Part shown: positions 11,104 to 42,998 of the stretch, piece after piece
Position numbering within the stretch: position 1 is the stretch's first letter
Layout: each line of letters opens with the position of its first letter
DNA from: an uncultured delta proteobacterium
Lineage (GTDB): Bacteria; Desulfobacterota; Binatia; UBA9968
Direction of reading: 5' to 3'
DNA: 64,000 bases
Assembly: GCA_963804165.1 (NCBI GenBank)
Contig: CAWDPO010000035.1
Coordinates: 1 to 64,000 of the forward strand
The notes under the pieces: generated by a model
What the model saw: the letters and a program-made list of their open reading frames with translations, nothing else
The model's database searches: none
What the model was told of the DNA's origin: nothing
Program-made: the position numbers and the translations under genes

Positions 11104-11131
11104 TTTCTCGATGGCGAGAGGAGAAAAGACC

Positions 11132-12133
11132 ATGCGCAGCGCTCATTGCACTTTGTTACGCCGGCTCGCAGCCGTATCTTTGATCGTGGGAATTTCGGCG
11201 TTCCACACGGAAGCCGTGCTGGCGGCGGACAGACTCATTGGCCTGCACTCTGCGCAGGTCATGTCGCAGTCGATGCCCTGGATCGCTCAGGAAGCCGGAC
11301 TATTTAAGAAATACGATTTGGATTTTCGACTGGTCTTTATTCCTTCCTCGCCGGTGGCCACCGCCGCGACGTTGAACGGCGATGCGGAGATCGGCGTGAC
11401 GGGCGCTGTCGGCAACGTGCGTGCTTACGTACAGGGCTTCACCGACTTGGTATTCATCGGCGGCATGAAAAACATCTTAACTCATAGCGTGCTCGGCAAG
11501 CCTGACATTAAGCGCCCCGAAGATCTCAAAGGAAAGAAAGTCGCCGTCGGACGGTTCGGCGGTAACACCCATTATTTCGTCATTCAGGCGCTGAGGCGGC
11601 TCGGCATGGACGCCGCTAAGGATATTCAGACGATTCAGACCGGTGGTGGTCCTGAAACACTCGCCGCATTGGTGAGCGGTAGCGTCGATGCGGCCGGTCT
11701 GGTGGCGCCGGGGGACTCCGCTGCCGTTGCAAAGGGATTTCGCTACGTGATCAATGGCCCCGAAATGCGCATCCCCTACGGCGCAACCCAGGTGGTAACG
11801 CTGCGCTCGGTGATCAATAAACGCGGACCGGTGATCGGCAGATTCATGCGCGCAATGGGCGAAGCGTCGAAGATTATTCACACCGATAGAAAGTTTGTGT
11901 ATAAGGTCCTCGGCAAATATTTGCGGATTACCGATACCAAGGTACTCGATGCGGCATACCAATCTGAGATTCCGGCCCTTGAGCGGCGATTGGAAGTTGC
12001 TGACTCGGCGCTGCAAGCCTCCCTCGATGAAATCGCGCCGCAGGATGCGCGGGCGAAGTCCATCAAACCGCAGGATATGATCGATCGGCGCTATTTGGTC
12101 GAGCTGGAAAAGAGCGGCGTGTTTGACAAGTGA
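11132..12133 (+). CDS. ABC substrate-binding protein, SsuA/NMT1 (NitT/TauT) family
   Basis: Signal peptide; PWIAQEAGLFKKYDLD and DLKGKKVAV motifs; AGGAG RBS. Confidence 0.85.
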   Translation: MRSAHCTLLRRLAAVSLIVGISAFHTEAVLAADRLIGLHSAQVMSQSMPWIAQEAGLFKKYDLDFRLVFIPSSPVATAATLNGDAEIGVTGAVGNVRAYVQGFTDLVFIGGMKNILTHSVLGKPDIKRPEDLKGKKVAVGRFGGNTHYFVIQALRRLGMDAAKDIQTIQTGGGPETLAALVSGSVDAAGLVAPGDSAAVAKGFRYVINGPEMRIPYGATQVVTLRSVINKRGPVIGRFMRAMGEASKIIHTDRKFVYKVLGKYLRITDTKVLDAAYQSEIPALERRLEVADSALQASLDEIAPQDARAKSIKPQDMIDRRYLVELEKSGVFDK

Positions 12134-12165
12134 AAACGGCAATAGCCAAAAAAAAGAGGAGAAAC

Positions 12166-13194
12166 ATGCCAACACGCGCGATAGATATTCACCACCACTA
12201 CGTTCCCGAGGGAGTGGTCGGAGAGGCGAAGCGGCACGGCAAAGCGCTCGGCATCGAAGTGTCCGAAGATAACGACCGGACCATCCGATTTTCCTTCAAT
12301 GGTGGCCCTAGGTATCCATTGCTACAGGGCTTGACGGATGTGGAGCGGCGGCTGGAGATGATGGAAAAGAGCAAAATAGCGCTGGCAGCGCTCGATCCGA
12401 GCACGCAGCTTCTCGGTTATGATCTCAAAGGAGAACAGGCGGAGAGATGGTGTCGCGTCTACAATGAATGCGTTAAAGAATTCCTGAAGAAATATCCGGA
12501 TCGCTTTACGGCGATGGCAGCAGTTCCCATTCAGGAGCCTAAGCTCGCTGCCAGAGTGCTTGAGCACGCGGTTACCGAGCTCGATTTTCGCGGTGCTTAC
12601 ATCGCCACGAACGTCAATCACCGTTATTATGACAGCGAAGACTTCGATGCTTTCTGGGCCAAGGCACAAGAGTTGGACGTGTTGGTCTTCATGCACCCGG
12701 ACAATCCAGCAGGAACGGAGCTGATGGGCTCCTTTGGTATGCGACTCGTATGTGGCAATCCCGCTGACACGACGTTCTCTCTCGGTCTTCTAATTTACAG
12801 CGGCGTCTTCGACCGGTTCCCCAATTTAAAAGTTTGCACATGCCATGGTGGTGGATTTTTCCCTTATCACGTGGGCCGATTCGATCGAGAATATCTTACC
12901 GGAAAGCAAGCGACCCGGCGCGCCGACCGTCCGAACTCACCGCGTTGCACTGCCGCGCCGAGTGCTTACCTCAAGAACTTGTACTTCGACACACTGGTTT
13001 ATGATGTGGAAACGCTCGACTTTCTTCGGCGCAAAGTCGGTGCGGAGCACTTGATGCTTGGAACTGATTTTCCTTATATCCTCGGCGATTGGGAATGCGT
13101 CGACAAAGTCGAAGCGCTGCCGTGCTCGGAAGCCGAAAAGCGAGCGGTTCTCGAACACAACGCGAGCAGGTTGCTAAAGATTTCCGCGGCTTGA
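12166..13194 (+). CDS. Amidohydrolase_2 family protein (ACMSD-like)
   Basis: IDIHHH, FMHP, HGGG, LYFDT and LGTDFP motifs. Confidence 0.88.
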   Translation: MPTRAIDIHHHYVPEGVVGEAKRHGKALGIEVSEDNDRTIRFSFNGGPRYPLLQGLTDVERRLEMMEKSKIALAALDPSTQLLGYDLKGEQAERWCRVYNECVKEFLKKYPDRFTAMAAVPIQEPKLAARVLEHAVTELDFRGAYIATNVNHRYYDSEDFDAFWAKAQELDVLVFMHPDNPAGTELMGSFGMRLVCGNPADTTFSLGLLIYSGVFDRFPNLKVCTCHGGGFFPYHVGRFDREYLTGKQATRRADRPNSPRCTAAPSAYLKNLYFDTLVYDVETLDFLRRKVGAEHLMLGTDFPYILGDWECVDKVEALPCSEAEKRAVLEHNASRLLKISAA

Positions 13195-13361
13195 CAAACA
13201 TCGGCTGGTGGCCGCTGGGTCTCAAATCATGAATGACGCGGTTCCTTTCGGTCACCGCATCCCGCGCCATTGCCATCGGATGCTGACAACTCCAATGGGC
13301 GGTGGTTCAATTTCAGAAATACTTGTAGGGGCGACCCTGTGTGGTCGCCCATCTGGGTTGA

Positions 13362-13390
13362 TTGACACCCGCCGTTACGGTTGATAGTTT
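13362..13390 (+). promoter_or_regulatory. Putative sigma70 promoter of the Sec-glutaredoxin-DinB gene
   Basis: TTGACA (13362-67), 17-bp spacer, TAGTTT (13385-90), about 40 nt upstream of ATG 13429. Confidence 0.5.
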
Positions 13391-13428: not shown

Positions 13429-14202
13429 ATGGAAAATATCAATGATCGATTCGTCCTGTTCACCCAACCCGGCTGAAGCAGTTGCCTTAGAACGAAAGAG
13501 TTTCTTTCGAGAAAAAGGCATCGACTTTTTCACCCTTGACGTTTTGAACGACCCGGCAGGGCGAGAACAGCTACTCAGGCTCGGCGTGCAGACGGTGCCG
13601 GTGCTGGCAAGAGGGAGCAGTATATCTTCTGCCAGAACCTGGAGGACGTCGCCGAATTTGTCGGCTTGCAGGGAACCGGTCACACTCCGCTTCCTCCCGC
13701 AATGCTGGTCGAAAAATGGCTCGCCGTGCTGCGCGCTGCGCAACGCTACATCCACCAGATTCCCAACGCACGACTCGGCGAGCGTGCGATCGACAACCGC
13801 GATCGCTCAATCCGGCTGTTGAGCCATCATGTCTTTCGCATCGGCGAAGCCTTCCTCGAGACCGCGATCGACGACGTAGAATACTGGGCAAACAATGCCA
13901 ACGTGCCGCCCGATGATGGAAGCTGCACCACCGGAATAGAGATCGTGGCTTACGGCGAAGGTATTATCGAGCGCATCGAGAATTGGTGGGCCCAGCTCGA
14001 TGATAGATCCTGCCAGCAAAAGGTTAAAACATTCTACGGCACGCCGCCGATGCACCAGCTCTTCGAGCGCTCGACGTGGCACTCGGCACAGCACACGCGC
14101 CAATTGATGACCGTGCTCGAGCGCTTCGGTATAGAACCAGACGGCAGGCTCTCGGCTGAAGATCTCGCGGGTTTACCTCTGCCTGAGCGGGTGTGGGACT
14201 AG
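13429..14202 (+). CDS. Selenocysteine-containing glutaredoxin (UxxC) fused to a DinB-like domain; two compensating indels (about 13515 and 13615)
   Basis: ATG 13429 reads MENINDRFVLFTQPG-TGA(13474)-SSCLRTKEFL, then KGIDF..DV.ND...TVPV (glutaredoxin cis-Pro), YIFCQNLEDVAEFVG, then ORF 13666..14202 with LSHHVF and WHSAQH. Confidence 0.8.
13483..13520 (+). promoter_or_regulatory. SECIS-like stem-loop after UGA 13474
   Basis: Apical stem CGAAAGA/TCTTTCG with loop GTT (G at 13500); lower stem TGCCTT/AAGGCA. Confidence 0.6.
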
Positions 14203-14381: not shown

Positions 14382-15407
14382 GTGAAGATGCAGCAGAAAA
14401 AAGTGCTGGGGATTCTCTTGGCTGTCATTTTCGTCGGGGCCGTCGCCGGTCCGGCGCGCACACAGGACAGTTCGAGAAAGCTTTTGGTTGCCTACGCCGG
14501 TTTGATTTCTACGCACGCGAGCGTTTGGCTCGGCGAAGAGCAAGGCTTTTACAAAAAGCATGGGCTCGATATCACTTCTGTTTTTATATCGAGCGGGTCG
14601 GTAACATCCCAGGCACTAATCGCCGGAGAGGCTAAGTTGGCTTCCACCAGCGTAGGTCCCACAGCGGGCGCCGTGGCAGGGGGAGCCGATCTCGTGATCG
14701 TGGCGGGAACGATCCACATTCTCCCTTATCAGTTTTGGGTTTTACCCCAGGTGCGCCAGCCCGCCGATCTGAAAGGGAAGCGAGTCGCCATCAGTACTTT
14801 TGGCTCCGGCAGTCACCTGGCGGCCGAAGTGGCGCTGCATTCGCTCGGCTTGGACCCCGTGCGAGATAAGATCGCGATCATGCAGGTAGGAACCCAGCCG
14901 GATCGAGTGGCGGCGCTGGCGAGCGGCAGGATCGATGCGACGCCTTTGGAGCCCGGCTTTGGACAAGCGGCAAAAGAAAAGGGACTCACGGTGATGGTCG
15001 ACCTGACCAAAACTGATGTTCCTTACCTGAACACCGTGCTCGTCGCGTCGCGGCGTTTTCTTAAAGAGAGTCCGCAACAGGTCGAGTCATTTCTCAAAGG
15101 CACCATCGACGGCTTTGCTTTTCTGCCGAACCCAGCCAATGAGAAGGCAGTCAAGAGTGTGCTCGCCAGGCGTTTGAAGCTCAGCACGCCGCAGAGCATT
15201 CAAATCATGTACGATGCTACTCTGGAGATCCATGCCAAGACCAAGTTGCCAAACGTTCCGCTGGCAGGCGTGCAGAACATGATCGATGCTTTACTCCGGA
15301 CGAATCCGCGCATGGCCAAGCTTAAGGCCGCCGATCTCGTCGATAGTTCATTCATGGATCGGCTGGAAAAATCAGGCTATGTTCAGGAAGCCATGAAAAA
15401 AAATTGA
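14382..15407 (+). CDS. ABC substrate-binding protein, SsuA/NMT1 family
   Basis: Signal peptide; QGFYKKHGLD and DLKGKRVAIS motifs; AAGGAG RBS. Confidence 0.85.
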   Translation: MKMQQKKVLGILLAVIFVGAVAGPARTQDSSRKLLVAYAGLISTHASVWLGEEQGFYKKHGLDITSVFISSGSVTSQALIAGEAKLASTSVGPTAGAVAGGADLVIVAGTIHILPYQFWVLPQVRQPADLKGKRVAISTFGSGSHLAAEVALHSLGLDPVRDKIAIMQVGTQPDRVAALASGRIDATPLEPGFGQAAKEKGLTVMVDLTKTDVPYLNTVLVASRRFLKESPQQVESFLKGTIDGFAFLPNPANEKAVKSVLARRLKLSTPQSIQIMYDATLEIHAKTKLPNVPLAGVQNMIDALLRTNPRMAKLKAADLVDSSFMDRLEKSGYVQEAMKKN

Positions 15408-15492
15408 CGGAGATCGCAATATGCTCGCCGGTATCACGGCGCGACCTCGGTCGGTGCGATTACGGCAAGACGCGGCGCTGGAGAAGGGCGAA

Positions 15493-15918
15493 CTATTTTG
15501 CCTTTGGAGCTATTGGACTCACGAGGTCACGCTCGGAAAGGTGGGCGACAGTTTCTCCGGTTTCGGCAAAGGTTCGGGTCACGTCCGTGGAGGTATAAAT
15601 CCATAAGATCGCGAGCGGGGTCGTGCCGACGTTCACGAAGCGGTGCGGCTGGTTCGCCGGAACGAGCGTCGTGTCGTAAGCGTGCAGCCGATGGCGCTGG
15701 CCGTCGAGCTCGGCCTCGGCCTCCCCTTCGAGAATCGTCACTTGCTCATCGCAGTTATGAGAATGCATTGGAACCTTGGCGCCGACCGGGAACCGGGTGA
15801 TCCCCGTCGTTAAATGCTTCGAGCCAAGCTCTTTCGTAACCAAGGGAATCGTTTGAATCCCATTGCCGCGATCGACCACGGGCAACGAATCGATTCTCAG
15901 AACATGGGCGTCTGCCAT
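15493..15918 (-). CDS. Cupin domain protein
   Basis: HSHNCDEQ and PANQPHRF cupin motifs. Confidence 0.85.
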   Translation of the reverse strand: MADAHVLRIDSLPVVDRGNGIQTIPLVTKELGSKHLTTGITRFPVGAKVPMHSHNCDEQVTILEGEAEAELDGQRHRLHAYDTTLVPANQPHRFVNVGTTPLAILWIYTSTDVTRTFAETGETVAHLSERDLVSPIAPKAK

Positions 15919-15974
15919 TGGAATATCTCCTTCCGGAAATCAGACTGTGCGGCGAACACTAACAAGGAGTCGAT

Positions 15975-16931
15975 ATGCGAATCAAGTTGATTCCGTTTCT
16001 TGTGATTCTCACTGTGCTTGTCGGCGTATGCTCGGCGTCGGCGCAGCTCAAGAAGGTTAGGTTTTCCACGACCGGGATTTCTATTTCCGAGCTGCCCTTC
16101 AAAGTCGCCCAACTCAAGGGGTTTTGGCGCGAGGAAGGCCTTGACGTCGAGACCATTCTCATTCGCGGCGCTGTGGGAATGCAGGCGCTGTTGGGCGGCT
16201 CGGTCGATTACACATCGGCTTCGGGCTCAACGATTGCCGCGGCCGTCCGCGGTCTGCCGGTCAAGCTCGTATTTGTTTCTTCGGCAAAGCCGCAGTTTGA
16301 ACTCATCGCCCAGCCCCAGATCAAATCCGTCCAGGAACTCAAGGGAAAAATCGTCGGCATTTCATCCCGCGGTGGTTCCAATGATCTCATGATGCAAATG
16401 ATCCTGCAGAAAAACGGCCTCGCGCCAAACAAGGACGTTACAACGCTCATCATCGGCGCCCAAGAAGAAACGGTGATCGCCCTGCGAACGGGCCGAATTG
16501 CCGCAGCCTTGATCACTCCGCCGAGAAACTTCATTCTCCAACGTGATGGGTTCAACCGCATCGCTTATTCCGGGGATTACATGACCACCTATGCGAACGG
16601 TGGGATTGGCGTCGCCGACGAAAAAATAAAAAGCAATCCCGCCGAGGTTCTCGCCTTTGTCAGGGGCACGATCAAGGGCCTACAGTTTTCCATGAAAAAT
16701 CGTGCCGAGATGGTGAAGATCATGCCGGGATACTTGGGTATCAAGGATGTAACGCTGATAGACCAGCTCTACGATCTCTACTTGACCCGCCAGTCGATCG
16801 ACGGATCGGTCGATGACAACTGGATGAAAGGCGCCATCGAGTTCACGCAGAAGACTCTTGGCGCCGCCACCAAAGAGGTTGCACCGAGTCAGGTCTTCGA
16901 TTTCAGCTTCGCCCAGAAGGCGGTGCGATAA
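15975..16931 (+). CDS. ABC substrate-binding protein, SsuA/NMT1 family
   Basis: Signal peptide; GFWREEGLDVE and ELKGKIVGIS motifs; AAGGAG RBS. Confidence 0.85.
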   Translation: MRIKLIPFLVILTVLVGVCSASAQLKKVRFSTTGISISELPFKVAQLKGFWREEGLDVETILIRGAVGMQALLGGSVDYTSASGSTIAAAVRGLPVKLVFVSSAKPQFELIAQPQIKSVQELKGKIVGISSRGGSNDLMMQMILQKNGLAPNKDVTTLIIGAQEETVIALRTGRIAAALITPPRNFILQRDGFNRIAYSGDYMTTYANGGIGVADEKIKSNPAEVLAFVRGTIKGLQFSMKNRAEMVKIMPGYLGIKDVTLIDQLYDLYLTRQSIDGSVDDNWMKGAIEFTQKTLGAATKEVAPSQVFDFSFAQKAVR

Positions 16932-18532: not shown

Positions 18533-18985
18533 TCAGAAACCTTTGATCAGCGGATACGGCAGCCCGAGGCCCGAGATGAATATGGCGACCGAGAGCGTGG
18601 TCAGAATAACGGTAAGCAACAGGACCTCGACGAACTTGAACTCTCGCCCCGCGGAGGCCGACCCGAAGATGAGGACCGCCAGCGCAGGTATGAAGCCGGC
18701 ATGGGGCATCAAAACGCCAAACGCGACGAGTGAGAGAGGCAGCACGATCAACGCCCGAAGCGAGCAGCGAACCGCGATCTTCTCGCTCGTACGCAGGCCG
18801 ATGGCCATTGCGTAGAGGCCGAACAGGACGAGAATCCCGCCGAGCACGCTCGGGAAGTAGCCGGGCCCCATCCGCATCGTGCTGCCGAACGGGTAACCGC
18901 GGGCGATGAAGATCGACGCGGCGCCGATCGTGATCAACATGATGCCGGCCCAGAAATTTTTGTTGTGGCGCAACTCTATTTTCAT
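18533..18985 (-). CDS. tctB: Tripartite tricarboxylate transporter TctB
   Basis: MGPGYFP motif; 4 TM segments; adjacent to tctA. Confidence 0.88.
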   Translation of the reverse strand: MKIELRHNKNFWAGIMLITIGAASIFIARGYPFGSTMRMGPGYFPSVLGGILVLFGLYAMAIGLRTSEKIAVRCSLRALIVLPLSLVAFGVLMPHAGFIPALAVLIFGSASAGREFKFVEVLLLTVILTTLSVAIFISGLGLPYPLIKGF

Positions 18986-22327: not shown

Positions 22328-23011
22328 AATCACCTGCTTTCGCTTTTTTACCGCCCAATATGTGATTTTCTCAAACCGTTGCCGAAATCTTGAATCACCG
22401 CCGCTTCCCGGCGGCAAATGAAAGGAAGAGCTTTGCATATCCCTGCGGAGCCTGATCACCAATAATACATTGGCAGCGCGTGCCGGAATCTCACACTGCA
22501 ACGATTGGCAAACCGTCAACACGAACTTTTGGCGTTGGACTACCGAAATCTGCGCCAAGCGCACGAATCAACCCGTCCCTGAGTGCCGGCAGTTAAAGGA
22601 GTTTAGCGCACAGCTTTCTCGCGAGGTTGATATTTTGCAGGCTCAAGCTGCTTAGCTGGAGGCCGAGCGAAACAGCGCTCGACAGGATCTTGCCGACGTG
22701 ACAGATTCGATGATGCGGCTGCGCAATCGGCTGGTCGAATTGCCGCTTTTTCGAGCTGCGGTTGAAGTCCCTCGCCCGCATCGCCGCAGCGCGTTTGGGG
22801 AAGAGAATCACGGCGCTGCGTAGCGGCGCCAATCGTTAAGGGATCAGACAGATTTAGTTCGATCACTGCAGGTTGAAAAGACCAAATACTCCTGTCCAGA
22901 TTCATTTTCCTACCACAAAAGACCAAAAATTCCACTTGACAAGCGTCTCGGGTATGTTTAATGGTGCCTCAGTTTTATCTCCCCCTCTCGGTAAATATTG
23001 GAGGTGCGTCC

Positions 23012-26000
23012 ATGGAAGTTTCCAGGCGTGACTTTCTCCGGTTCTCCGTTGGCGCAGCCGGCGGTACCGCATTGGCGGGCCTTGCCGGCTCCGGGGTCAA
23101 TCTCGGACCGGTTGTCGCCCGAGCTCAAGAGCTACGAATCAAAAATGCCAAGGTGACCCCGAGCGTCTGTCCTTATTGCTCGGTCGGCTGCGGTACGCTC
23201 ATCCACACCATCGACGGCAAGATCGTTAACATCGAAGGCGATCCTCGTAGCCCCCACAATGAGGGAACGCTCTGCCCCAAGGGAGCGGCTATCTTCCAGC
23301 TTCACGTCAATCCGAATCGTCCTACGCAAGTCCTGCATCGCGCCGCGGGCGCGGCCGATTGGGAAGTGTGGGACATCGAGCGCGCGATGACTCGGATCGC
23401 CGAGCTGACCAAAAAGACGCGGGACGAGACCTTCATCGAAAAGCTTCCCAATGACAAGCTCGTCAACATGACGCCCGCCATCTTTGCGTTGGGCGGCGCC
23501 ACGCTCGAGGTCGAGTTCAACCACGTTTGCCAGAAACTCATGCGCGGCCTGGGAGTGGTCGCCATCGAGAATCAGGCACGGATATGACACAGCTCTAGCG
23601 TCCCCGGTCTGGGGACCCGATTCGGCCGCGGCGCAGCGACACTCTATCCTCGGAGCATGGCCGACTCCGACTGCATCGTCGTGATGGGTTCCAATATGGC
23701 GGAAAACCATCCCGTCGCCTTCCGCTGGCCTATGAAAGCTAAGGTCGAGCACGGCGCCAAGATCATCCACGTCGATCCACGTTTCACCCGCACCAGCGCA
23801 GTAGCTGATATTTACGCTCCGGTCCGCGCGGGATCGGACATCGCCTTCCTGGGCGGTGTCATCAATTACGTGATCAACAGCGAGAAGTGGAACAAAGATC
23901 CGTTCTTCAAGAGCTTCGTGGTGAACTACACGAATGCCGCGACGATCATCAACGAGGACTTCAAGGACACCGAAGACCTGGACGGAGTTTTTTCGGGACT
24001 ACTGCAATCCAAGGGCGGGGTAAACGAATGGCCGTTCAACGGTTTCACCAATCAGTACGACGGCGCGAGCTGGCAGTATGCTCGCACCAAAGTTGGGGCG
24101 CAGGGGGAGGCTGCCGCGTCGACCGCCCGGTCCGGCGAGACCAAGGTCAGTACCGGCGCGACCGGGCAAAAAGACGCGCCCCAGACAGCTCAGGCAGCGG
24201 CTAAGTCGTCGCAGGGGCCGCCATTCGCGCCACTGGTGGCGTCCCTGGTGAAGCCAGCGGTTCTCCGCGACGACACGCTGCAGAATCCGAGGACGGTTTT
24301 CCAGATCGTCAAGAAGCATTTCGCGCGCTACACGCCGGAGATGGTGGAGAAGAGCACCGGCTGTCCCAGGGAAATGTTTCTAAAAGTCGCCGAGACCATT
24401 CTGGCGAATTCGGGCGCGGAGCGGACGACTTCATTCGCCTACGCCGTTGCCTGGACGCAGCACACCTATGGAGTGCAAATCATCGGCGCCTGCGCGCTGC
24501 TTCAGCTTCTCCTGGGGAATATCGGCCGGCCCGGCGCGGGCGTCATGGCGCTCCGCGGCCACGCCTCCATCCAGGGCTCGACGGACGTTCCCACGCTGTA
24601 CCACTCGATCCAGGGCTATATGTCGGCGCCGACGGCGCTCAAGAAACACGACACCTTGCACGATTACCTCGCCGCTGAGACTCTGCCGACGGGCTATTGG
24701 GCGAACATGCCGAAATTCGTCGTTTCGTATCTGAAGTCCATATATGGGGACGCTGCCACCAAGGAAAACCAATTCGGCTGGGACTGGCACCCGAAGATTC
24801 TTGGCGACCACTCGCACATGGCCATGTTCGTGGCGATGAACGCAGGCAGGGTGAAGGGGATGTTTTGCGTCGGGCAGAATCCGGCCACGTCAGTGAATGC
24901 CAAGCTGGACCGGTCGGCGCTAAGGAAGCTCGAATGGCTGGTCGTGAAAGATAACTGGCTCACCGAGACCGCTACTTATTGGAAGAATGCGCCGGAGGTC
25001 AAGAAGGGCGAAGTCAAGACCGCGGATATCAAGACCGAAGTCTTTTTCCTGCCCGCCACCCAGGTCGCCGAGGTCGAAGGCACGTTCACCAACACGCAAC
25101 GCCTGCTGCAATTTCATCACAAAGCCGCCGAGGCGCCCGGCGATTGCCGGTCCGATACCTGGTTTTACTACGATCTCGGCAAGCGCTTGAAGAAACTCTA
25201 CGCGCAATCGACATCGCCGCGCGACGAGGGTTTTAAAAATCTCATCTGGGATTATGAGCACGAGAACGAAAACGAGCGCAAGAAGGGCGAGCCTTCGGCG
25301 TTGAAAATTCTAAAAGAGCTCAACGGCTTTTTCACGGCAGATCCCGCGCGTCACTGCGTTGGTTTCGGCGAGCTGGCGGACGATGGTTCGACAACGTGCG
25401 CGTCGTGGATTTACTCGGGGGTTTTGCCGGCGGCGGGCAAGAATCTCGCCGATCGACGCACACCTGACGCGCCGGGCAAACCCGGCGCTCAACTGGAGTG
25501 GGGCTGGGCATGGCCGGCGAACCGGCGGGTCATGTACAATCGCGCCTCCGCCGATCCCGAAGGAAAGCCATGGAGCGAGAGGAAAAAGTGGGTATGGTGG
25601 GATGGGGAGGCGAAAAAATGGGTCGGCTATGATGTGCCGGACTACATCGCGACGAAACCGCCCACCGACAAAGCGAAGCCAGGCGCGGCAGGCATGGATG
25701 CGCTCCCCGGCACCGCTCCTTTCATTATGCGGCCGGACGGCGTGGGTTGGCTGTTCGTGCCGGCAGGCCTGGTAGACGGGCCGCTGCCGACGCACTACGA
25801 GCCGGTCGAGTCGCCGGTCAATAACTCGCTCTACAAGCAGCAAAATAGCCCGGTCATCAAATACTGGAAGGATCCCGGCAACGAGCTGGCGAAGCTAGGC
25901 GATCCAAAGTTCCCGTATGTGATCACCACGTATCGGCTGACCGAGCACTACCTGGCGGGCGGCATGAGCCGCTGGTTGCCGTGGCTAACCGAGTTGCAGC

Positions 26001-26299
26001 CCGAACTTTTCGTCGAGATCAGTCCCGAGCTGGCGCAGGAGAAAGGCATCAAGAATCTCGACTGGTGCAAAATCTCCAGCCCGCGCACGCAGATCCGCGC
26101 GAAGGCTCTGGTCACGCGGCGCATGCAGCCATTCAAGATCGACGGCAAGGTCATCCACCAGGTCGGCATGCCCTGGCACTGGGGTTATGAAGGCTTATCG
26201 ACCGGCGACGTGGTCAACGAGCTGACGTCCCTCATCGCTGATCCGAACGTTTCGATGCACGAGGGAAAAGCGTTTGTGTGTAACGTGGAGAAAGCGTGA
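23012..26299 (+). CDS. fdnG: Formate dehydrogenase alpha subunit, selenocysteine-containing, Tat-exported
   Basis: GGAGG RBS; SRRDFLR Tat motif; CPYCSVGC..C; ENQARI-TGA(23585)-HSS in frame with ORF 23657..26299; ALRGH motif. Confidence 0.93.
23600..23616 (+). promoter_or_regulatory. SECIS element of fdh alpha
   Basis: GTCCCC-GGTCT-GGGGAC hairpin 12 nt after the UGA. Confidence 0.8.
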
Positions 26300-26300
26300 C

Positions 26301-26386
26301 GAAGAATGGAGTGATGGAATAATGGAGTACTGGAGTAATGATTTGCCGAAACCCGACACTCCATCAGTCCAACACTCCAATTCTTC
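26301..26386. repeat. 8-bp-period palindromic element (TGGAGTRA)n...(YACTCCA)n
   Basis: Tandem ATGGAGT units and inverted ACTCCA units; same family at 44975-45066 and 47247-47316. Confidence 0.75.
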
Positions 26387-26398
26387 TTAGGAGGTTTT

Positions 26399-27199
26399 AT
26401 GCCTGAGCCAATGGGATTCTACACCGACACGACGGTCTGCATCGGCTGCAAGGCGTGCGAGGTCGCCTGCAAAGAATGGAATCAGTTGCCCAGCACCAAC
26501 GGCGGCGTGAATACGTTGAGCGGCGATAGCTATGACAACACGCGCAAGCTCGACGGCATCCACTGGCGCCATGTAAAATTCATCGAGCAGTTCACTGAAG
26601 ATCGCAAGGACGGGCGCTGGCTCTTGATGAGCGACGTGTGCAAGCACTGCGTGAACGCGCCTTGCCTCGAAGTCTGTCCCACCGGTGCGATCGCGCGCAC
26701 CGAGTTCGACACGGTCGTCATTCAGTCCGACGCATGCAACGGCTGCCGAGACTGTATCTCCGCCTGTCCTTTTGGCGTCATCGATATCAACCCGGCATCG
26801 GGAATCGCCCAAAAGTGCACGCTCTGTTACGATCGGCTTCAAGTCGGTATGGAGCCCGCTTGCTCGAAGGCCTGCCCGACCGATTCGATTCAGTTCGGCA
26901 CGATCCGGGAGCTGCGCGAGACCGCCAACCAGCGAGTTGCCCAACTCCAGAAGGCGGGCGAGAGCCGCGCGTATCTTTACGGCGCGGATGAAAAAATGCT
27001 TGGCGGTCTGAACTCATTTTACTTGCTGGTGGATAAACCGGAAGTTTACGGCTTGCCGCCCGACCCGAAAATGCCCACGCGCAATCTCGCATCCGGCTCG
27101 TGGTTCTCCGTCTTGGGCGCCGTTCTGGTCGGTCTGATGGGGGTCATCAATTTTCGCAATCGCGGCGCCAGTGTCGAAGGTCGGGAGGAACGGCCATGA
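26399..27199 (+). CDS. fdnH: Formate dehydrogenase beta (4Fe-4S dicluster) subunit with C-terminal TM anchor
   Basis: CIGCKACEVAC, CKHC..APCLEVCP, CNGCRDCISACP and KCTLC..PACSKACP motifs. Confidence 0.9.
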   Translation: MPEPMGFYTDTTVCIGCKACEVACKEWNQLPSTNGGVNTLSGDSYDNTRKLDGIHWRHVKFIEQFTEDRKDGRWLLMSDVCKHCVNAPCLEVCPTGAIARTEFDTVVIQSDACNGCRDCISACPFGVIDINPASGIAQKCTLCYDRLQVGMEPACSKACPTDSIQFGTIRELRETANQRVAQLQKAGESRAYLYGADEKMLGGLNSFYLLVDKPEVYGLPPDPKMPTRNLASGSWFSVLGAVLVGLMGVINFRNRGASVEGREERP

Positions 27200-28101
27200 A
27201 TACGTTTCCCTCCAGCACCTATTTTAGCGCGCCGCCGGATTGGGGTTGGCTCATTGTTTTTTACTTTTTTTTCGGCGGCCTCGCCGGAGGAAGTTATTTT
27301 CTGGCGGTGCTCATCGATTTCTTCGGAAGAGAAGAAGACCGCCCGCTCGCGCGCCTGGGCTATTACATCGCGTTCCCGTGTATCGTGATCAGCGGCTTGC
27401 TGTTGACTCTCGATCTTACTCGGCCGCTGCGCTTCTGGCATATGCTGATCGAGTCGAACACTTTTCGCCCGATGTTCAAATATTGGTCCCCCATGTCGGT
27501 CGGATCCTGGGCGCTTTTGATATTCGGAGTATTCGCCTTGCTATCTTTTCTCGGAGCCCTTGCTGAAGACGATCGTTTGGCTTGGCCGGCCGGACGCAGA
27601 ATTCGCCCGCCTTCGATGCTGGGGCGCATCATCGGCTTGATTGGCGGACTTTTCGGATTCTACGTCGCCGGTTACACGGGGGTCCTTCTCGCCGTGACCA
27701 ACCGCCCCATCTGGTCGGACACTCCTCTCCTCGGTATGCTTTTCGTCGTTTCGGCTGCATCGATATCGGCCGCATTGATGATTCTCCTCGCGCAACGATC
27801 CCGATGGACTATGCCCGGTCTTGTCGCGCTGCACCGCATGGACACATGGGTCGTCGCGTTGGAATTTCTTGTTTTGATCGGCGTCATGATATCGCTCGGG
27901 CCCGTATTCCGCGCATGGCTGAACGCCTGGGGCCTCCTGCTCTTTTTCGGCGTCATCGTGCTGGGAATGCTTATTCCTTTGGCGCTCTTTTGGCGCCGAG
28001 AATGGCTTGGCGATCGTAACGTGACGACGGCGGCTGCATTGATCTTGGTCGGCGGCTTTATTCTTCGCCTGGTGATCGTCTTCTCGGCTCAAGGAGTGTG
28101 A
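27196..28101 (+). CDS. NrfD/PsrC family membrane anchor subunit
   Basis: YFFFGGLAGG, DLTRPLRFWH, SPMSVGSW and YTGVLL..T.RP.W motifs. Confidence 0.88.
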   Translation: MNTFPSSTYFSAPPDWGWLIVFYFFFGGLAGGSYFLAVLIDFFGREEDRPLARLGYYIAFPCIVISGLLLTLDLTRPLRFWHMLIESNTFRPMFKYWSPMSVGSWALLIFGVFALLSFLGALAEDDRLAWPAGRRIRPPSMLGRIIGLIGGLFGFYVAGYTGVLLAVTNRPIWSDTPLLGMLFVVSAASISAALMILLAQRSRWTMPGLVALHRMDTWVVALEFLVLIGVMISLGPVFRAWLNAWGLLLFFGVIVLGMLIPLALFWRREWLGDRNVTTAAALILVGGFILRLVIVFSAQGV

Positions 28102-28102
28102 T

Positions 28103-28336
28103 GTGAATCTTGCGGTGATCCTTCTAACCGCTCTTTCGTTCTACCTTGTCGGCTGCGCGAGCCCGGAGACGACGCGGACGCGCGGCGGCGGTCCGGGTGC
28201 TGACGTGGGCAACCGAGGCAAATTCGTGGAAATGCACGAAGGCTCACAACCTTTCTGGAAAACGCCGAAGATTATTCCCGCTAAACATCCACCTTTAGAC
28301 CCCGCCAACCAGGCGCATGAGCTGAGCCGCCGATGA
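28103..28336 (+). CDS. Small hypothetical lipoprotein in the fdh operon
   Basis: Hydrophobic N-terminus with lipobox LVGC; tightly coupled to both neighbours. Confidence 0.65.
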   Translation: MNLAVILLTALSFYLVGCASPETTRTRGGGPGADVGNRGKFVEMHEGSQPFWKTPKIIPAKHPPLDPANQAHELSRR

Positions 28337-29220
28337 CCACTTCCTTAAATACGGCCGTGCTGGATCTGGGTCGCCAGTATCCGGAGTGGCAGCCGTGGCT
28401 TACTGTCATCGAGGAAGTCCTGCGTGAAGCGACAGATTCGCAGTGGGAGGCGTCGGTTGCCGAGCCACCGGAGTCCCAAGAAAGCAAAGTTCCGCTGCTG
28501 GCAGGCGCCACGCTCTCCATGGACATTACTGCTGTAGGCCGTTGGTCGGAACGGCTGATGCGAGCCGCGTATCGAAGCGGCGCGCCAAAGATGTCGACGC
28601 TCAATGGAGTCCCGCAGAAGCGCTTGAACACCGTCGATCTATTCAAATCCTCGCTCTGCCAGAACGGCAAGTGGCTTGGCGAGGCCGCCGTTGAGCTTGA
28701 CGTGGACGTGGACGCGCTCCAAGCTGTAGCGCTCCTCATACCGGTTCCTTTCCTGCAAGCTTGCAACCGCCGCTGGGCGTCTTCGATCGCTGAAAGCTGG
28801 ACGGAAGGCTATTGCCCCGTGTGCGGCGCCTGGCCGGCCTTAGCCGAAGTGAGAGGGATCGAGCGCAGCCGCTACCTGCGCTGCGGGCGCTGCGGTGGCG
28901 GTTGGCAAGCTCAGTGTTTGTCTTGCCCGTATTGCGGCACGACGGACCATGAAGAGCTGGTCTCTCTCGTGCCGGAGAAAAGCGGCTCGAATGGCGCGAT
29001 CGACGCGTGCAAGCGCTGTCTCGGTTACGTCAAAACTTTTACCACGCTTCAGGGCAGTCCGCCCGCCAACGTCATGGTCGATGATCTGGCCAGCGTGGAT
29101 CTCGATATCGCGGCCCTGCAGCAAGGCTACCGACGCCCCGAGGGGGCAGGCTATTCCCTCGACATCAAAATTATACCTAAGCCGAGATTCAGCGAGAGGA
29201 TCTTGTCTTGGCGAACATGA
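28333..29220 (+). CDS. fdhE: Formate dehydrogenase accessory protein FdhE
   Basis: CPVCG, RYLRCGRC, CPYCG, CKRCLGYVK and DDLASVDLD motifs. Confidence 0.9.
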   Translation: MTTSLNTAVLDLGRQYPEWQPWLTVIEEVLREATDSQWEASVAEPPESQESKVPLLAGATLSMDITAVGRWSERLMRAAYRSGAPKMSTLNGVPQKRLNTVDLFKSSLCQNGKWLGEAAVELDVDVDALQAVALLIPVPFLQACNRRWASSIAESWTEGYCPVCGAWPALAEVRGIERSRYLRCGRCGGGWQAQCLSCPYCGTTDHEELVSLVPEKSGSNGAIDACKRCLGYVKTFTTLQGSPPANVMVDDLASVDLDIAALQQGYRRPEGAGYSLDIKIIPKPRFSERILSWRT

Positions 29221-29705: not shown

Positions 29706-29930
29706 CTGGCTCCGCCACGGCTGTTGAGCGAGGCTCTTCCCACCCCTGTCGCCCACGGTGTAGTTTTGACGGCTGCCGAACTCAAGGAAATGATTCGCGG
29801 ATACTACCAAGCGAGAGGATTGGATGAGAGCGGCTTGGTTACGGGAAGGAAACTGCGCAAGCTGGAGATTCTCAAAGCTCCGGCCGTAGGAGTCAAGTCA
29901 TGCCAAGCGATGAAACACGCCGCGTGCTGA
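29704..29930 (+). pseudogene. C-terminal stub of an aldehyde:ferredoxin oxidoreductase (AOR family)
   Basis: DWL-PRLLSEALP...ELKEMIRGYYQARGLDESG...KLRKLEI resembles the AOR C-terminus (LP.R...YY..RGWD..G). Confidence 0.65.
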
Positions 29931-30097
29931 AGCTATTTGGCGTCGCCGTGACAGGGTACGAGGACTGCGTTGAGAAGGGTGCGCCGGCCGAGGAGATGAA
30001 CAAAGCCGAGGCCGAGATCGGCGCCAGTCTTAACGAGGTGACAGCTCTGATCGAGCGGTTGCGCGCCAAGAAAAATAACTCTTCTCAGCAAAAGTAG
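29900..30097 (+). CDS. Small hypothetical helical protein
   Basis: AGGAG RBS before ATG; a decayed copy lies at about 21660-21815. Confidence 0.6.
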   Translation: MPSDETRRVLKLFGVAVTGYEDCVEKGAPAEEMNKAEAEIGASLNEVTALIERLRAKKNNSSQQK

Positions 30098-30142
30098 GAA
30101 TTGCAAGATTGAGCTAGCCCCGCCGCCGATTCTGCAAACCCC

Positions 30143-30244
30143 TCGCGCATCGAGGCCTCAAAGCATTACCCCACACTTGAAACGATGGAAAGAATTGCTA
30201 CCGCTCTCAAAGTTCCCATCGCGGATTTGATTGCGGTGCGCTAG
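30143..30244 (+). pseudogene. C-terminal remnant of an XRE-family HTH regulator
   Basis: Reads SRIEASKHYPTLETMERIATALKVPIADLIAVR*; no start codon. Confidence 0.6.
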
Positions 30245-30388
30245 GCGTTTTGTAATGCGGTGTGACAGGAAATCTGGCCAAGTCTAGCGTTGTATAGATT
30301 TTCACTTTCGAACGAATCGTGACGCAGGTAAAATACTGGCATCAACTATTTAACTCCGCATTTGGCCTCTTCCCTGCCTAGCAATGGG

Positions 30389-30541
30389 TCATCGGTCTTT
30401 TGCATCGCTATAGCCAACACCGTAAATAGTGACAAAGAGTTCTTTTATAAGCTTCTTCTCCGAGTCGTTACAGCTTAGATGCTTGATAACAACGTCGAGA
30501 ATTGGAAATCGCTTGTTCAGGGGTTCATATGTGTCGATCAT
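30389..30541 (-). CDS. Small hypothetical protein (50 aa)
   Basis: GGAGG RBS before MIDTYEPLNK...; AT-rich region. Confidence 0.4.
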   Translation of the reverse strand: MIDTYEPLNKRFPILDVVIKHLSCNDSEKKLIKELFVTIYGVGYSDAKDR

Positions 30542-30892
30542 GTTGCACCCTCCGATGGAGGGTCGATTTTTACGGCAAATCGACCACAAATGTCAAAAGG
30601 GGGGTGATTTCAGTCTGACTTATGCTCGTCAATCCAATCGCGAGCAGCGACTAAGGCCGCGCAGGCAGACCTCAGGGCAGTGCTATCATCGTGATCGGGC
30701 GTGACGTTATGGGAAGGCTTGAATTCAGGCAGATCGTTAAATATTCCACCTAACTTTCAATTCGCGAAACTCAAATGATGCTCGTACTCGCTCAGTCCAA
30801 AGAGGGCCTATGTCTTCGTCTTTTATCTGACACATTGCTTTACCGGAATTCATTAGGGCGTGGGTTTTAGCACAACGGCGACCGTTTTCCCC

Positions 30893-31222
30893 TTAGCTCC
30901 CTCTACTCTGCACGGCTATGATCCGATCCTTGATCCTTTTGAACGTGGCATCAGGAACGACCTTTTTTGAGATCAGTTCGTCCTTTTTCTGGTAAGGACG
31001 ATTATCGACAATTCTTTGTGCGTGAGCTTCGTCAATGCCTGGAAGCGCTTTCAGGTGGTCAATCGGTGCAGAGTTAATATCCAGCGGCTTGATTCTTGTA
31101 GGGACAACAATGCGATCAGCTGGAGGTCGATTTCTAACCTCCCCTGCCTGAATCCAATCTGGCGTTAAGCCAATAGAAACGCTGGCAATGAGCGCTCCAG
31201 CCACGATGTTGCATAAAAGCAT
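30893..31222 (-). CDS. ComEA-like helix-hairpin-helix protein
   Basis: LDINSA...LKALPGIDEAHAQRIVDNRPY; signal-like N-terminus. Confidence 0.8.
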   Translation of the reverse strand: MLLCNIVAGALIASVSIGLTPDWIQAGEVRNRPPADRIVVPTRIKPLDINSAPIDHLKALPGIDEAHAQRIVDNRPYQKKDELISKKVVPDATFKRIKDRIIAVQSRGS

Positions 31223-31916
31223 AATTTGTTATCGGCTGGAGAATACTACACCGCGAAAACCAATTTAACCAGCATGCTATTCGGTCACAGCAGTGCCAGA
31301 AAGTCGACCGAAAAAGCGATCCACTCTGATTCGACCCATTACAAATTCGAAATTGAGTCATTGGAACTCGGAATGCGCCACACTGATGCCATGCTTGCTT
31401 TGCCTCAATTACGAAACCTATGCCGCATCACCGACAATCGAAGCAACCCTTCACTTTTTTGCAAGGAGAAATCGACGCTCTAACCCGATTACATTTAGTC
31501 CTGCTTTTAAACAGGCGAAGTTACCGTTCAGTCAAAGCGCGTCAAATTCTCACAGGTGGATCTGATTCCTTTATAAATTACCAACCGTCTGTTCAAAAAT
31601 CAGGGTACGGCCCTTGCTCAAGGTTGCAGTCGCCGGGGCAGGTAACCGCAACTGGATACCACATCTTGATTCCTGCCCCGGACCAAGTCACTAGCAGAAC
31701 GCTGTGCTCGCGAAATCTCGACCCTCATAACCGATTTCAACGGAACGATTTTTCACGACGAGCGGCGTGACGGTTTTTTTATGTTATCTGGTTGCGCTGT
31801 AACGAAAAGATTCGAATTAAGAACCGGGCGAGCAGGTTGCTCCCGTTTTCGATTCTATACTAGAGTGCGTGTACCTTGACGACATAGTAAGCGCCGACCG
31901 ATCGGTTTAACGCATC

Positions 31917-42744: not shown

Positions 42745-42998
42745 GGTCGTGTGCCTCCTTTTGGGGCCTGAGGTGGTGTCGGCTAGACGGGCCGGCAGGC
42801 AACCGCGGGCTGGTTAATACGACGCCTCGCCCCGAATACCTCAACCTAGGGACGATGTCCAGATATCAATTGGCCGAGCTGCGCCGCGCTGATTCGCGGG
42901 TCTATGTTGACATCGTCGTTAGTGATCAACTACGTTTGGCCGCAACAGCAGAACAGTGGGCATGACAGTTGACGGTGGATCGAAAACCGAAAGAATCT

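What the first reader, a model, noticed from the sequence alone, without database searches (positions are those of the whole stretch)
13429..14202. Hidden selenoprotein: UxxC glutaredoxin fused to a DinB/S-transferase-like domain
Seen: from ATG 13429 the frame reads FVLFTQPG-TGA-SSCLRTKEFL, so the UGA occupies the first Cys of a glutaredoxin CxxC motif. A hairpin (CGAAAGA-GTT-TCTTTCG, lower stem TGCCTT/AAGGCA) places a G-first loop 23 nt after the UGA. After two compensating single-base indels in short homopolymers, the glutaredoxin (TVPV cis-Pro) runs into ORF 13666..14202, giving about 257 aa with LSHHVF and WHSAQH. A sigma70-like promoter lies upstream. Known: bacterial SECIS elements lie just 3' of the UGA; UxxC thioredoxin-fold selenoproteins exist; DinB/YfiT proteins use a three-His metal site and include thiol S-transferases and mycothiol-dependent maleylpyruvate isomerase. 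Inference: a single-chain enzyme coupling a selenol redox centre to a thiol-transfer or isomerase site, possibly serving the aromatic catabolism around it. The ORF track misses it entirely.
Basis: partly seen in the sequence, partly recalled or inferred. Interest (0 to 1): 0.85.

Follow-up and report, generated by a model that had tools for sequence, protein, structure and literature searches.

The report
Selenocysteine glutaredoxin-DinB fusion gene
This is a real gene for a selenium-containing two-domain redox enzyme that gene callers cut short at its selenocysteine codon, and the two frame breaks in this copy are most likely errors of an indel-prone assembly.

Summary
From ATG 13429 the frame reads FVLFTQPG-TGA-SSC-LRTKEFLS. 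A 7-bp hairpin lies 16 nt after the TGA. Two single-base indels, +1 near 13511-13516 and -1 at 13613-13616, separate three pieces of one 257-codon gene.

Every related locus I read that keeps its N-terminus has TGA at this codon, and 35 of 36 have the same 17-nt hairpin core. In another order, 18 of 19 Sec-form loci carry that core and 0 of 10 Cys-form loci do. Full-length Cys homologues with the same glutaredoxin + DinB architecture exist. The genome holds selA, selB, selD, tRNA-Sec and a Sec formate dehydrogenase.

So the TGA very probably encodes selenocysteine in a UxxC glutaredoxin fused to a DinB/YfiT-type domain.

The indels are probably assembly errors. Compared with two relatives, this genome shows 26 frame switches in 162 orthologous ORFs, and its selB is broken in the same way. 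A real pseudogene is not excluded.

No family model or review text that I searched lists this fusion. Earlier agents of this scan found the same family in at least 20 other genomes, so this window adds another, damaged, copy. The link to aromatic catabolism is not supported.

The parts
13429..14202 (+). Whole gene, 257 codons plus stop, for a Sec-containing glutaredoxin-DinB fusion protein. In this assembly it is interrupted by two single-base indels.
   Evidence: Translations in three frames. The C-terminal 200 aa are 90-91% identical to metagenome proteins. The gene is 774 nt, as in the intact homologues.
13474..13476 (+). In-frame TGA read as selenocysteine, the first position of the U-S-S-C redox motif.
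   Evidence: TGA is at this codon in 16 of 16 same-genus loci, in 33 of 34 named-genome loci printed with the N-terminus (the other, L075, is shifted upstream) and in L020 at 29% identity. TGC or TGT is at the same column in 10 Cys-form loci.
13493..13509 (+). SECIS hairpin core CGAAAGA-GTT-TCTTTCG. It is encoded within the codons for T-K-E-F-L-S.
   Evidence: RNAfold. The core is identical in 35 of 36 sequences. Four of its codons are among only 6 single-codon columns out of 132. It is present in 18 of 19 Sec forms and 0 of 10 Cys forms of another order.
13483..13520 (+). Extended stem, TGCCTT / AAGGCA, around the core hairpin.
   Evidence: Predicted in this copy. The 3' arm varies in homologues, for example CAC or CAG in L058 and L061, so the lower stem is not conserved.
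13510..13516 (+). First indel: one extra base in AGAAAAA. Homologues read TCG-AAA-AAA-GGC or TCG-AGG-AAA-GGC.
   Evidence: Alignment to L041 and L044. A 92%-like public contig lacks one base at 13511.
13613..13617 (+). Second indel: one base missing at GGG/AG. Homologues read GGN-GAN.
   Evidence: Alignment. The same public contig has one extra base here.
13450..13665 (+). Glutaredoxin/NrdH-like domain, residues about 8-79, with the cis-Pro motif TVPV.
   Evidence: PF00462 scores 45.6 bits on the intact homologue P0122. The best solved relative is glutaredoxin 7c10_A, E 1.9e-18. P57 is invariant in 49 sequences.
13690..14199 (+). DinB/YfiT-like four-helix-bundle domain, residues about 88-257.
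   Evidence: The AlphaFold model has pLDDT 85.2. Foldseek hits are 6iz2 (TM by target 0.82), 1rxq (0.68) and 2nsf. PF12867 is over its cut-off in the Cys homologues but under it here.
13828..13830 (+). His134 codon (LSHHVF), the candidate first ligand of a three-His metal site.
   Evidence: Invariant in A1 and at least 90% conserved in A2. The assignment to the metal site is inferred.
14080..14094 (+). H218-S-A-Q-H222 (WHSAQH), the candidate second and third His ligands.
   Evidence: H222 is invariant and H218 at least 90% conserved in 49 sequences. The assignment is inferred.

Best explanation
The locus encodes a 257-residue selenoprotein. During translation the UGA at 13474-13476 is recoded as selenocysteine. 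SelB-GTP-Sec-tRNA(Sec) is recruited by a small SECIS hairpin (13493-13509) that lies 16 nt downstream, inside the coding sequence.

The product has two domains. The N-terminal domain is glutaredoxin/NrdH-like, with a Sec-Ser-Ser-Cys redox centre. The C-terminal domain is a DinB/YfiT-type four-helix bundle, with conserved His134, His218 and His222.

The mechanism below is inferred, not shown. The DinB domain binds a metal and a thiol-reactive substrate or a thiol adduct, as DinB-superfamily S-transferases do. The fused U-x-x-C centre supplies the nucleophile, or resolves the resulting mixed (selenyl)sulfide. It then closes to a Se-S bond and is re-reduced by a cellular thiol system. This would be a single-chain analogue of the thioredoxin-fold plus helical-domain layout of GSTs.

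In this assembly the gene carries one inserted and one deleted base, 105 nt apart. These are most likely consensus errors of an indel-prone assembly, so the organism probably has an intact gene.
For: What is shown:
- TGA sits at the active-site column in every related locus read that keeps the N-terminus: 16 of 16, 33 of 34 printed with one frame-shifted upstream, and L020 at 29% identity. The sets overlap in genomes.
- Gene calls in public data start after the TGA: 120 of 120 listed hits are 200-238 aa.
- Full-length Cys homologues with PGC[ST]SC plus DinB exist.
- The hairpin core is identical in 35 of 36 sequences.
- Only 6 of 132 conserved degenerate codon columns use a single codon: the TGA, four hairpin codons and one other.
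- In another order, 18 of 19 Sec forms have the core, the 19th has a different hairpin at the same place, and 0 of 10 Cys forms have it.
- The Sec machinery is in the genome: selA (610 bits), selB (357 bits), selD with its own TGA (385 bits) and tRNA-Sec (76 bits, anticodon TCA). A Sec formate dehydrogenase lies in the same window.
- Fold: pLDDT 85.2, with DinB/YfiT and Grx/NrdH matches.

Evidence that the indels are errors:
- There are 26 distinct frame switches in 162 orthologous ORFs (180 kb aligned) against two relatives.
- The genome's own selB is split over three frames, while 18 relatives have it whole.
- Completeness is 80.9% for 7.5 Mb in 46 contigs.
- A 92%-like public contig lacks both indels.
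Against: No selenium incorporation, expression or activity was shown. Everything about function is inferred from folds and conserved residues.

Two indels in 0.77 kb is more than the measured mean rate of about 1 per 7 kb predicts. rpoB, rpoC and secA (about 11 kb) have none, and 10 further window ORFs showed no split domains. The breaks could therefore be real, and the coincidence with a broken selB could mean real decay of the Sec trait.

No run holding this exact sequence was found: the best run holds 0.24 of the sampled words. The reads could not be checked.

The DinB Pfam match of the window copy is below the gathering score (18.2 against 24.8 bits).

I could not read model coordinates, so I do not know whether Sec16 faces the His site.

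Neighbours give no functional clue.
Confidence: 0.7

Rival explanations
1. The two indels are real. This strain carries a recently inactivated pseudogene of the selenoprotein, possibly as part of a decaying selenocysteine trait, because its selB is also frame-shifted.
For: There are two breaks in 0.77 kb here and two in 1.9 kb of selB. There are none in about 11 kb of rpoB, rpoC and secA, and no split domains in 10 other window ORFs. Frame 1 meets a TGA at 13537-13539.
Against: The genome-wide rate of 26 frame switches in 162 orthologous ORFs is far above what a free-living 7.5-Mb bacterium would carry as pseudogenes. No other damage is visible: the C-terminal 200 aa are 90-91% identical to homologues and have no stops. 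selA, selD (with its TGA), tRNA-Sec and the 1120-codon Sec formate dehydrogenase are intact. Another few-contig relative (G018) shows frame breaks in the same two genes, which fits assembly quality better than parallel decay.
Confidence: 0.25
2. The TGA is an ordinary stop. The real product is a stand-alone DinB-like protein starting downstream, as annotated in public data, and the upstream glutaredoxin-like frame is a remnant.
For: All 120 listed public gene calls start after the TGA. No protein holding the N-terminal 45 residues was found in the 5.8-billion-protein collection.
Against: The 15 codons upstream of the TGA, with an ATG, stay open and conserved in every locus read. A remnant would not keep TGA, the partner Cys, the cis-Pro and a Sec-form-specific hairpin across phyla. 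The downstream starts of the public calls fall inside the glutaredoxin fold.
Confidence: 0.03
3. The gene is read through two programmed ribosomal frameshifts (+1, then -1) in this organism.
For: The two shifts cancel and lie in short runs.
Against: None of the other loci read needs any shift at these places. The same genome shows such switches in many unrelated genes. No known shift signal was seen.
Confidence: 0.01

Closest known systems
Stand-alone selenoprotein glutaredoxin (Grx, PF00462, UxxC). It is listed as experimentally verified in the 2026 review PMC13188914, where I read passages with 'find'. The closest solved chains are 7c10_A and 7c12_A, 'Glutaredoxin'.
   Same: It has the same fold and the same position of Sec, at the first residue of the CxxC motif. 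There is a similar V/T-K-E-F-L-S stretch after the motif. The profile of the family hits 7c10_A at E 1.9e-18 over residues 7-87.
   Different: The known proteins are about 84 residues long with a single domain. This one carries a 170-residue DinB-type domain in the same chain. That 7c10 is the Clostridium oremlandii enzyme comes from earlier notes of this scan and my own recall, not from a call.
DinB/YfiT superfamily (PF12867, PF05163). Examples are YfiT of Bacillus subtilis (1rxq), DR0053 (6iz2), and the N-terminal domain of mycothiol-dependent maleylpyruvate isomerase (2nsf).
   Same: It has the same four-helix-bundle fold, with TM by target of 0.68-0.82. His residues are conserved at one early and two late (H-x3-H) positions.
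   Different: The known members are stand-alone proteins or are fused to other domains, and they use a free low-molecular-weight thiol. That they act as thiol S-transferases is recalled knowledge and was not tested here. Here a redox-active glutaredoxin with Sec is fused in front. The window copy scores under Pfam's cut-off.
Cys-form glutaredoxin-DinB fusion proteins, named 'glutaredoxin', 'DinB family protein' or 'hypothetical protein' in public data.
   Same: They have the same two-domain architecture and length (250-276 aa), 27-44% identity, and the same invariant C, C, P, H, R and Q positions.
   Different: They carry Cys in place of Sec and lack the hairpin: 0 of 10 loci read have it. None is characterised as far as my searches show.
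Uxx-star and HUGP/GUXX-star glutaredoxin-like selenoproteins (NF041212, NF041114, NF041211, NF045501).
   Same: They have a glutaredoxin-like fold with Sec, and some are fusion selenoproteins. The N-terminal domain gives weak matches to them.
   Different: All scores are far under the curated cut-offs, for example 36.3 against 66 bits. The motif and the fusion partner differ.
Glutathione S-transferases and Grx2-type proteins (a thioredoxin-fold head plus a helical body).
   Same: The overall layout of an N-terminal thioredoxin fold followed by a helical domain is analogous. Foldseek lists many GSTs.
   Different: Those alignments have an rmsd of 11-15 A and TM of 0.22-0.33. The helical domain is a different fold, so this is an analogy and not membership.

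Membership tests
Bacterial selenoprotein gene | An in-frame UGA is conserved among orthologues at a position where other homologues have Cys. | tested here: met
   TGA is present in all loci read that have the N-terminus in frame. TGC or TGT is at the same column in 10 loci, and C in 59 full-length proteins.
Bacterial selenoprotein gene | A SECIS stem-loop lies shortly 3' of the UGA with G in the apical loop. The spacing rule is recalled from the bSECISearch literature. | tested here: met
   The hairpin is at +19 to +35 and the loop GUU begins 23 nt after the UGA. The sequence is fixed at synonymous sites. It is specific to Sec forms. One Sec form has a different hairpin at the same place. No dedicated SECIS predictor was available.
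Bacterial selenoprotein gene | selA, selB, selD and tRNA-Sec are present in the genome. | tested here: met
   All four score over their curated cut-offs. selB is split over three frames in this assembly.
Bacterial selenoprotein gene | Selenium is incorporated into the protein. | not testable with these tools
   This needs 75Se labelling or mass spectrometry.
Glutaredoxin (PF00462) | The profile match is over the gathering score. | tested here: met
   The intact homologue P0122 scores 45.6 bits against a cut-off of 22.9. In the window the domain is split: 27.4 bits for the frame-2 piece and 18.8 bits for the frame-1 piece.
Glutaredoxin (PF00462) | A C/U-x-x-C active site and a cis-Pro (TVP) loop. 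| tested here: met
   U16 and C19 are invariant, as is P57 in 49 sequences.
Glutaredoxin (PF00462) | Glutathione-dependent disulfide reductase activity. | not testable with these tools
   The closest profiles are NrdH/YruB-like. As I recall, those are often reduced by thioredoxin reductase rather than glutathione.
DinB/YfiT superfamily (PF12867, PF05163) | The profile match is over the gathering score. | tested here: inconclusive
   The window copy scores 18.2 bits against a cut-off of 24.8, and P0122 has no DinB hit at E 0.01 or better. The Cys homologues P0127, P0130 and P0131 score 29-35 bits, over the cut-off.
DinB/YfiT superfamily (PF12867, PF05163) | A four-helix-bundle fold. | tested here: met
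   Foldseek gives 6iz2 with TM 0.82 and rmsd 2.9, and 1rxq with TM 0.68. The family profile hits 6iz2 at E 1.3e-4.
DinB/YfiT superfamily (PF12867, PF05163) | A three-His metal site. | tested here: inconclusive
   H134, H218 and H222 are conserved. I did not see a residue-by-residue alignment to the ligands of a solved member, and no coordinates of the model were available.
Uxx-star glutaredoxin-like selenoproteins (NF041212 and relatives) | A score over the curated cut-off. | tested here: not met
   The scores are 36.3 against 66 bits, 25.2 against 100, and 21.5 against 97.
Mycothiol-dependent maleylpyruvate isomerase | A DinB-like N-domain plus the isomerase C-terminal domain, with mycothiol dependence. 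| tested here: not met
   There is only a fold match to the 2nsf N-domain, with TM by query 0.42. The protein ends after the DinB domain, so there is no second domain.

The most novel reading that the evidence does not exclude
Glutaredoxin-DinB fusions may be a widespread selenoprotein family that is missing from the current inventories. In this reading, a protein-borne selenol replaces the free low-molecular-weight thiol of DinB-type S-transferases, giving a self-contained metal-dependent selenol transferase or reductase. Two further observations fit it. Sec and Cys have been exchanged at least three times in the family. One 17-nt SECIS core is kept identical in genomes labelled as Binatia, Burkholderiales, Acidobacteriota and others, which suggests that the Sec form spreads horizontally.
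Probability: 0.25. Interest if true: 0.7.

Novelty: new variant of a known kind. Interest (0 to 1): 0.5.

Why it matters
Sec-containing thioredoxin-fold proteins are a known kind. A Sec glutaredoxin fused to a DinB-type domain, however, is not named in the two reviews, the database paper or the preprint that I searched by term. It also reaches no NCBIfam model's cut-off.

The family is common in soil and freshwater metagenomes, with 3250 hits. It is cut short in all 120 public gene calls listed, and in the 12 whose sequences I read the call starts after the Sec codon. Redox and selenium budgets inferred from those annotations therefore miss it.

It also offers a tractable pair of natural Sec and Cys forms of one enzyme. 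The function of DinB-superfamily proteins is largely open, and a covalently attached redox partner is a strong hint about their chemistry.

For this window the practical lesson is different. The assembly carries about one frame-breaking indel per 7 kb of coding sequence, so broken genes in it should not be read as biology without reads.

Tried and rejected
- **Reads.** No public run holds this sequence. The best run holds 0.24 of the sampled words. The four runs I laid are Logan contigs of relatives, so the indels could not be checked in the source. One contig of run X3 is identical over 13613-13813 and stops aligning exactly at the second indel, with four unaligned letters. That is at most a weak hint.
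- **N-terminal search.** A search with residues 1-45 in the 5.8-billion-protein collection found nothing. A 45-residue query is weak at that database size, so this does not show absence.
- **Related loci.** The search for related loci with the diverse alignment A2 failed for lack of a conserved stretch. A1 worked.
- **Folding energy.** It does not separate Sec from Cys forms, with means of -13.2 and -14.2 kcal/mol. Only the specific conserved hairpin does.
- **Rfam.** There was no relevant match around the gene.
- **Gene neighbourhood.** NMT1-like binding proteins occur in 13 of 32 loci, Amidohydro_2 in 11, other binding proteins in 8, MmgE/PrpD in 7 and a ThiD-like kinase in 5. There is no conserved partner, and these families are highly paralogous in these genomes, so I draw no function from them.
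- **Same-phylum sample.** The sample of 401 genomes mostly returned small stand-alone Grx-like selenoproteins, not fusions.
- **tctB-tctA.** The same-frame junction at 18533-18535 is two genes, not a read-through.
- **Protein Atlas.** A natural Cys form returned only clusters with generic names.
- **Model coordinates.** They are not available in the Python box, so I could not measure the Sec-to-His distance.

Full report
**What is in the sequence**

From ATG 13429 the + strand reads MENINDRFVLFTQPG, then TGA (13474-13476), then SSCLRTKEFLS. This frame runs into another TGA at 13537-13539. The glutaredoxin continues in the next frame as EKGIDFFTLDVLNDPAGREQLLRLGVQTVPVLARG. It returns to the first frame as QYIFCQNLEDVAEFVGLQGTGH and runs to the stop at 14200-14202.

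Pfam finds the Glutaredoxin model split accordingly. Model positions 2-22 are in frame 1 (18.8 bits) and positions 16-54 in frame 2 (27.4 bits). There is a weak DinB_2 match on the C-terminal 200 residues (18.2 bits, under the 24.8 cut-off).

The energy is -17.2 kcal/mol and z = -2.6.

The promoter claim is not borne out by the scan. A perfect TTGACA is present at 13362-13367, but the -10 candidate matches only 3 of 6.

**Homologues keep the frame, the fusion and the TGA**

The C-terminal part has 3250 relatives at E <= 0.001 among 3507 candidates. They come mainly from JGI and ENA metagenomes. All 120 best are 200-238 aa long. Twelve that I read run without interruption through LGVQTVPVLAKGGQYIFCQNLEDVAEFVGLQGTGH, so the Grx half and the DinB part are one frame in them. 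Their called starts all lie after the Sec codon.

In 41 related genomes, 20 have a match. In the 16 relatives' loci that hold the N-terminus, 16 of 16 have an ATG about 15 codons upstream, the conserved F-x-L-F-T-Q-P-G, then TGA, then S-S-C. One of these, L006, is from the unpublished genome G005. The count is 15 of 15 without it.

A scan of named genomes returned 38 loci. They are mostly titled Candidatus Binatia or 'Deltaproteobacteria bacterium'. A few are titled Burkholderiales/Betaproteobacteria, Acidiferrales, Chloroflexota, Udaeobacter or Nitrospira. Of the 34 with the N-terminal region, 33 show TGA in frame at the motif and one (L075) is frame-shifted just upstream. These genomes overlap with those; for example, L041 equals L002.

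A distant member, L020 at 29% identity, also has TGA, in Y-R-P-G-U-F-T-C.

**The hairpin is under selection as RNA and goes with Sec**

The 17-nt core is identical in 35 of 36 sequences, and L070 has one change.

In 31 distinct Sec-form genes, 132 codon columns have a conserved degenerate amino acid. They use 3.0 codons on average. Only 6 use a single codon: the TGA, the K, E, L and S codons of the hairpin, and one other column. The F codon of the hairpin is TTT in 30 of 31.

As a control I sampled 301 genomes of the order that holds locus L066. Thirty-seven have the fusion. Of 51 matches that span the motif, 41 contain one TGA and 10 contain none. Three of the 41 are from the unpublished genome G649.

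I read 29 loci, leaving out G649's:
- 19 are Sec forms. Eighteen have the exact core. One, L133, has a different hairpin at the same place (GGACC..AGAG-UUC-CUCU..GGUCC).
- 10 are Cys forms (TGC or TGT). They use varied codons for the same T/V-K-E-F-L residues, and none has the core.

Folding energy alone does not separate the two groups.

**Cys homologues and the family tree**

A profile search of 1.84 billion representative proteins found 3953 proteins at E <= 0.001 and 179 at E <= 1e-30. Many of the best 150 are full-length, 250-276 aa, with P-G-C-[ST]-S-C. Six that I scanned carry Glutaredoxin, and five of them also carry DinB_2 or DinB over the cut-off. Their sources name them 'glutaredoxin' or 'hypothetical protein'. 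Atlas clusters call them 'DinB family protein' or 'glutaredoxin domain-containing protein'.

In 49 aligned sequences the invariant positions are U/C16, C19, P57, G204, H222, R224 and Q225. H134, H218, W217, E213 and R214 are at least 90% conserved.

A quick maximum-likelihood tree of 47 Sec and 59 Cys rows needs at least 4 Sec/Cys changes, of which starred branches force 3. Forty Sec rows fall in one group with support 86. Rows left out were the window's broken copy, L049, L154 (unpublished), L160-L162 (missed by my pattern), and partial loci.

**The organism decodes Sec**

The genome has the following, all over their cut-offs:
- selA at 610 bits.
- selB at 357 bits.
- selD at 385 bits, with its own in-frame TGA.
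- tRNA-Sec at 76 bits, which ARAGORN calls tRNA-SeC with anticodon TCA.

The window itself holds a TAT-signal molybdopterin formate dehydrogenase with TGA at 23585-23587.

**Are the two indels real?**

DNA alignment shows one extra base in TCGAGAAAAAGGC and one missing base in AGAGG-GAG.

No public run holds this sequence. A 92%-like contig in one run lacks both indels.

Several housekeeping genes are whole: rpoB, rpoC and secA. Ten other window ORFs are unbroken by the Pfam test.

Against that, selB of this genome is split over three frames: GTPase and barrel, then wing_2, then wing_3. Eighteen relatives have it in one 637-668-aa frame.

For a genome-wide measure I took 267 long ORFs from 400 kb of two relatives (G014, G004) and ran tblastn against this genome. 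Of these, 162 had an orthologue at >= 65% identity, giving 180 kb aligned. Those showed 28 frame-switch events, 26 of them distinct, which is about one per 7 kb. Most lie in short runs of 2-5 identical bases.

With 80.9% completeness for 7.5 Mb in 46 contigs, this points to an indel-prone consensus. G018, another few-contig relative, shows frame breaks in this same gene and a shortened selB match.

I therefore put about 0.7 on assembly error and 0.25 on a real pseudogene. The clustering of two breaks in each of two Sec-related genes keeps the second reading alive.

**Structure and likely function**

AlphaFold on the 14-sequence alignment gives pLDDT 85.2 and pTM 0.80. It shows a beta-alpha-beta-alpha-beta-beta-alpha head followed by four long helices.

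Foldseek matches the body to DinB/YfiT proteins (6iz2, 1rxq) and to the N-domain of mycothiol-dependent maleylpyruvate isomerase (2nsf). It matches the head to Grx/NrdH proteins. The GST hits have an rmsd of 11-15 A and reflect layout only.

By sequence, the head is closest to glutaredoxin 7c10_A, at E 1.9e-18.

Everything about chemistry is inferred. I expect a metal at H134/H218/H222 and a U-x-x-C centre acting on a thiol adduct or electrophile bound there.

Neighbours vary between loci.

**Is it known?**

My full-text searches found nothing relevant:
- selenoprotein + DinB + glutaredoxin: 2 papers, irrelevant.
- 'selenoprotein families' + DinB: 0 papers.
- selenocysteine + 'DinB superfamily': 1 paper, irrelevant.
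- selenoprotein + YfiT: 1 paper, irrelevant.

Using 'find', 'DinB' occurs 0 times in the main text of each of these:
- the 2026 review PMC13188914;
- the 2022 review PMC9312934;
- the BSepDB paper PMC13326102;
- the 2022 preprint on eight new families.

The two reviews list Grx (PF00462, UxxC) and several Grx-like families. I read only the passages around the search terms, and supplements were closed, so the fusion could be filed there under 'Grx'. No NCBIfam model reaches its cut-off.

Earlier agents of this scan reported the same family in at least 20 other genomes, with the same verdict. This window is a further copy, not a first sighting.

Noticed in passing
window 22940-29217 (+): A formate dehydrogenase operon. 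The alpha subunit has a TAT signal and an in-frame TGA at 23585-23587 (IENQARI-U-HSSSVPGLG), with a hairpin GTCCCC-GGTCT-GGGGAC just downstream. After it come an Fe-S subunit, an NrfD-like membrane subunit and FdhE. This is a second selenoprotein gene in the window.
   Followed up: partly
own genome, contig C16 about 140942-142891 (locus L022:664-2613, minus strand): selB is split over three reading frames (GTPase and barrel, then wing_2, then wing_3). It sits beside an intact selA and a selD that carries its own TGA. Eighteen same-genus genomes have selB whole.
   Followed up: yes
own genome, whole: About one frame switch per 7 kb of coding sequence relative to two relatives: 26 distinct events in 162 orthologous ORFs, mostly in short base runs. 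Two of them lie on the window's contig, beyond the window (C35 near 76788 and 88500). Broken genes in this assembly need reads before any biological reading.
   Followed up: yes
L133 (genome G734): A Sec form that groups with Cys forms in the tree. It has W-Q-P-H-U-T-S-C and a different hairpin at the same distance. This may be an independent Cys-to-Sec change with its own SECIS.
   Followed up: partly
L078 and L044 (two contigs of one named MAG); L075; L017 (G018): L078 is a second copy in the same genome as L044, broken after K-K-G and matching only residues 1-86. L075 is frame-shifted just upstream of the Sec codon. L017 has an extra A in a run at about codon 77. All are from few-contig or 'contig_'-named assemblies.
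   Followed up: no
own genome, contig C43:209770-210012 (-): A glutaredoxin-only match with two TGA and one TAG inside. It may be a small Uxx-star-type selenoprotein. Such stand-alone Sec Grx-like genes were the commonest hit across 401 genomes of the phylum.
   Followed up: no
window 13330-13351: An inverted repeat, GGGCGACC...GGTCGCCC, lies between the upstream amidohydrolase gene and the selenoprotein gene. A relative's contig has a similar palindrome at the same place.
   Followed up: no
window 11111-13194, 14382-16931 and 42966-44965: Repeated pairs of NMT1/THI5-like binding proteins and Amidohydro_2 enzymes, with a cupin at 15493-15918. The same families flank the gene in a third of related loci. 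TenA- and ThiD-like genes flank it in a few, which hints at a thiamine-pyrimidine theme. I did not test this.
   Followed up: partly
window 29800-33300 and 37400-39600: Stretches with only short open frames and lower third-position G+C. They may be non-coding, foreign or badly assembled.
   Followed up: no
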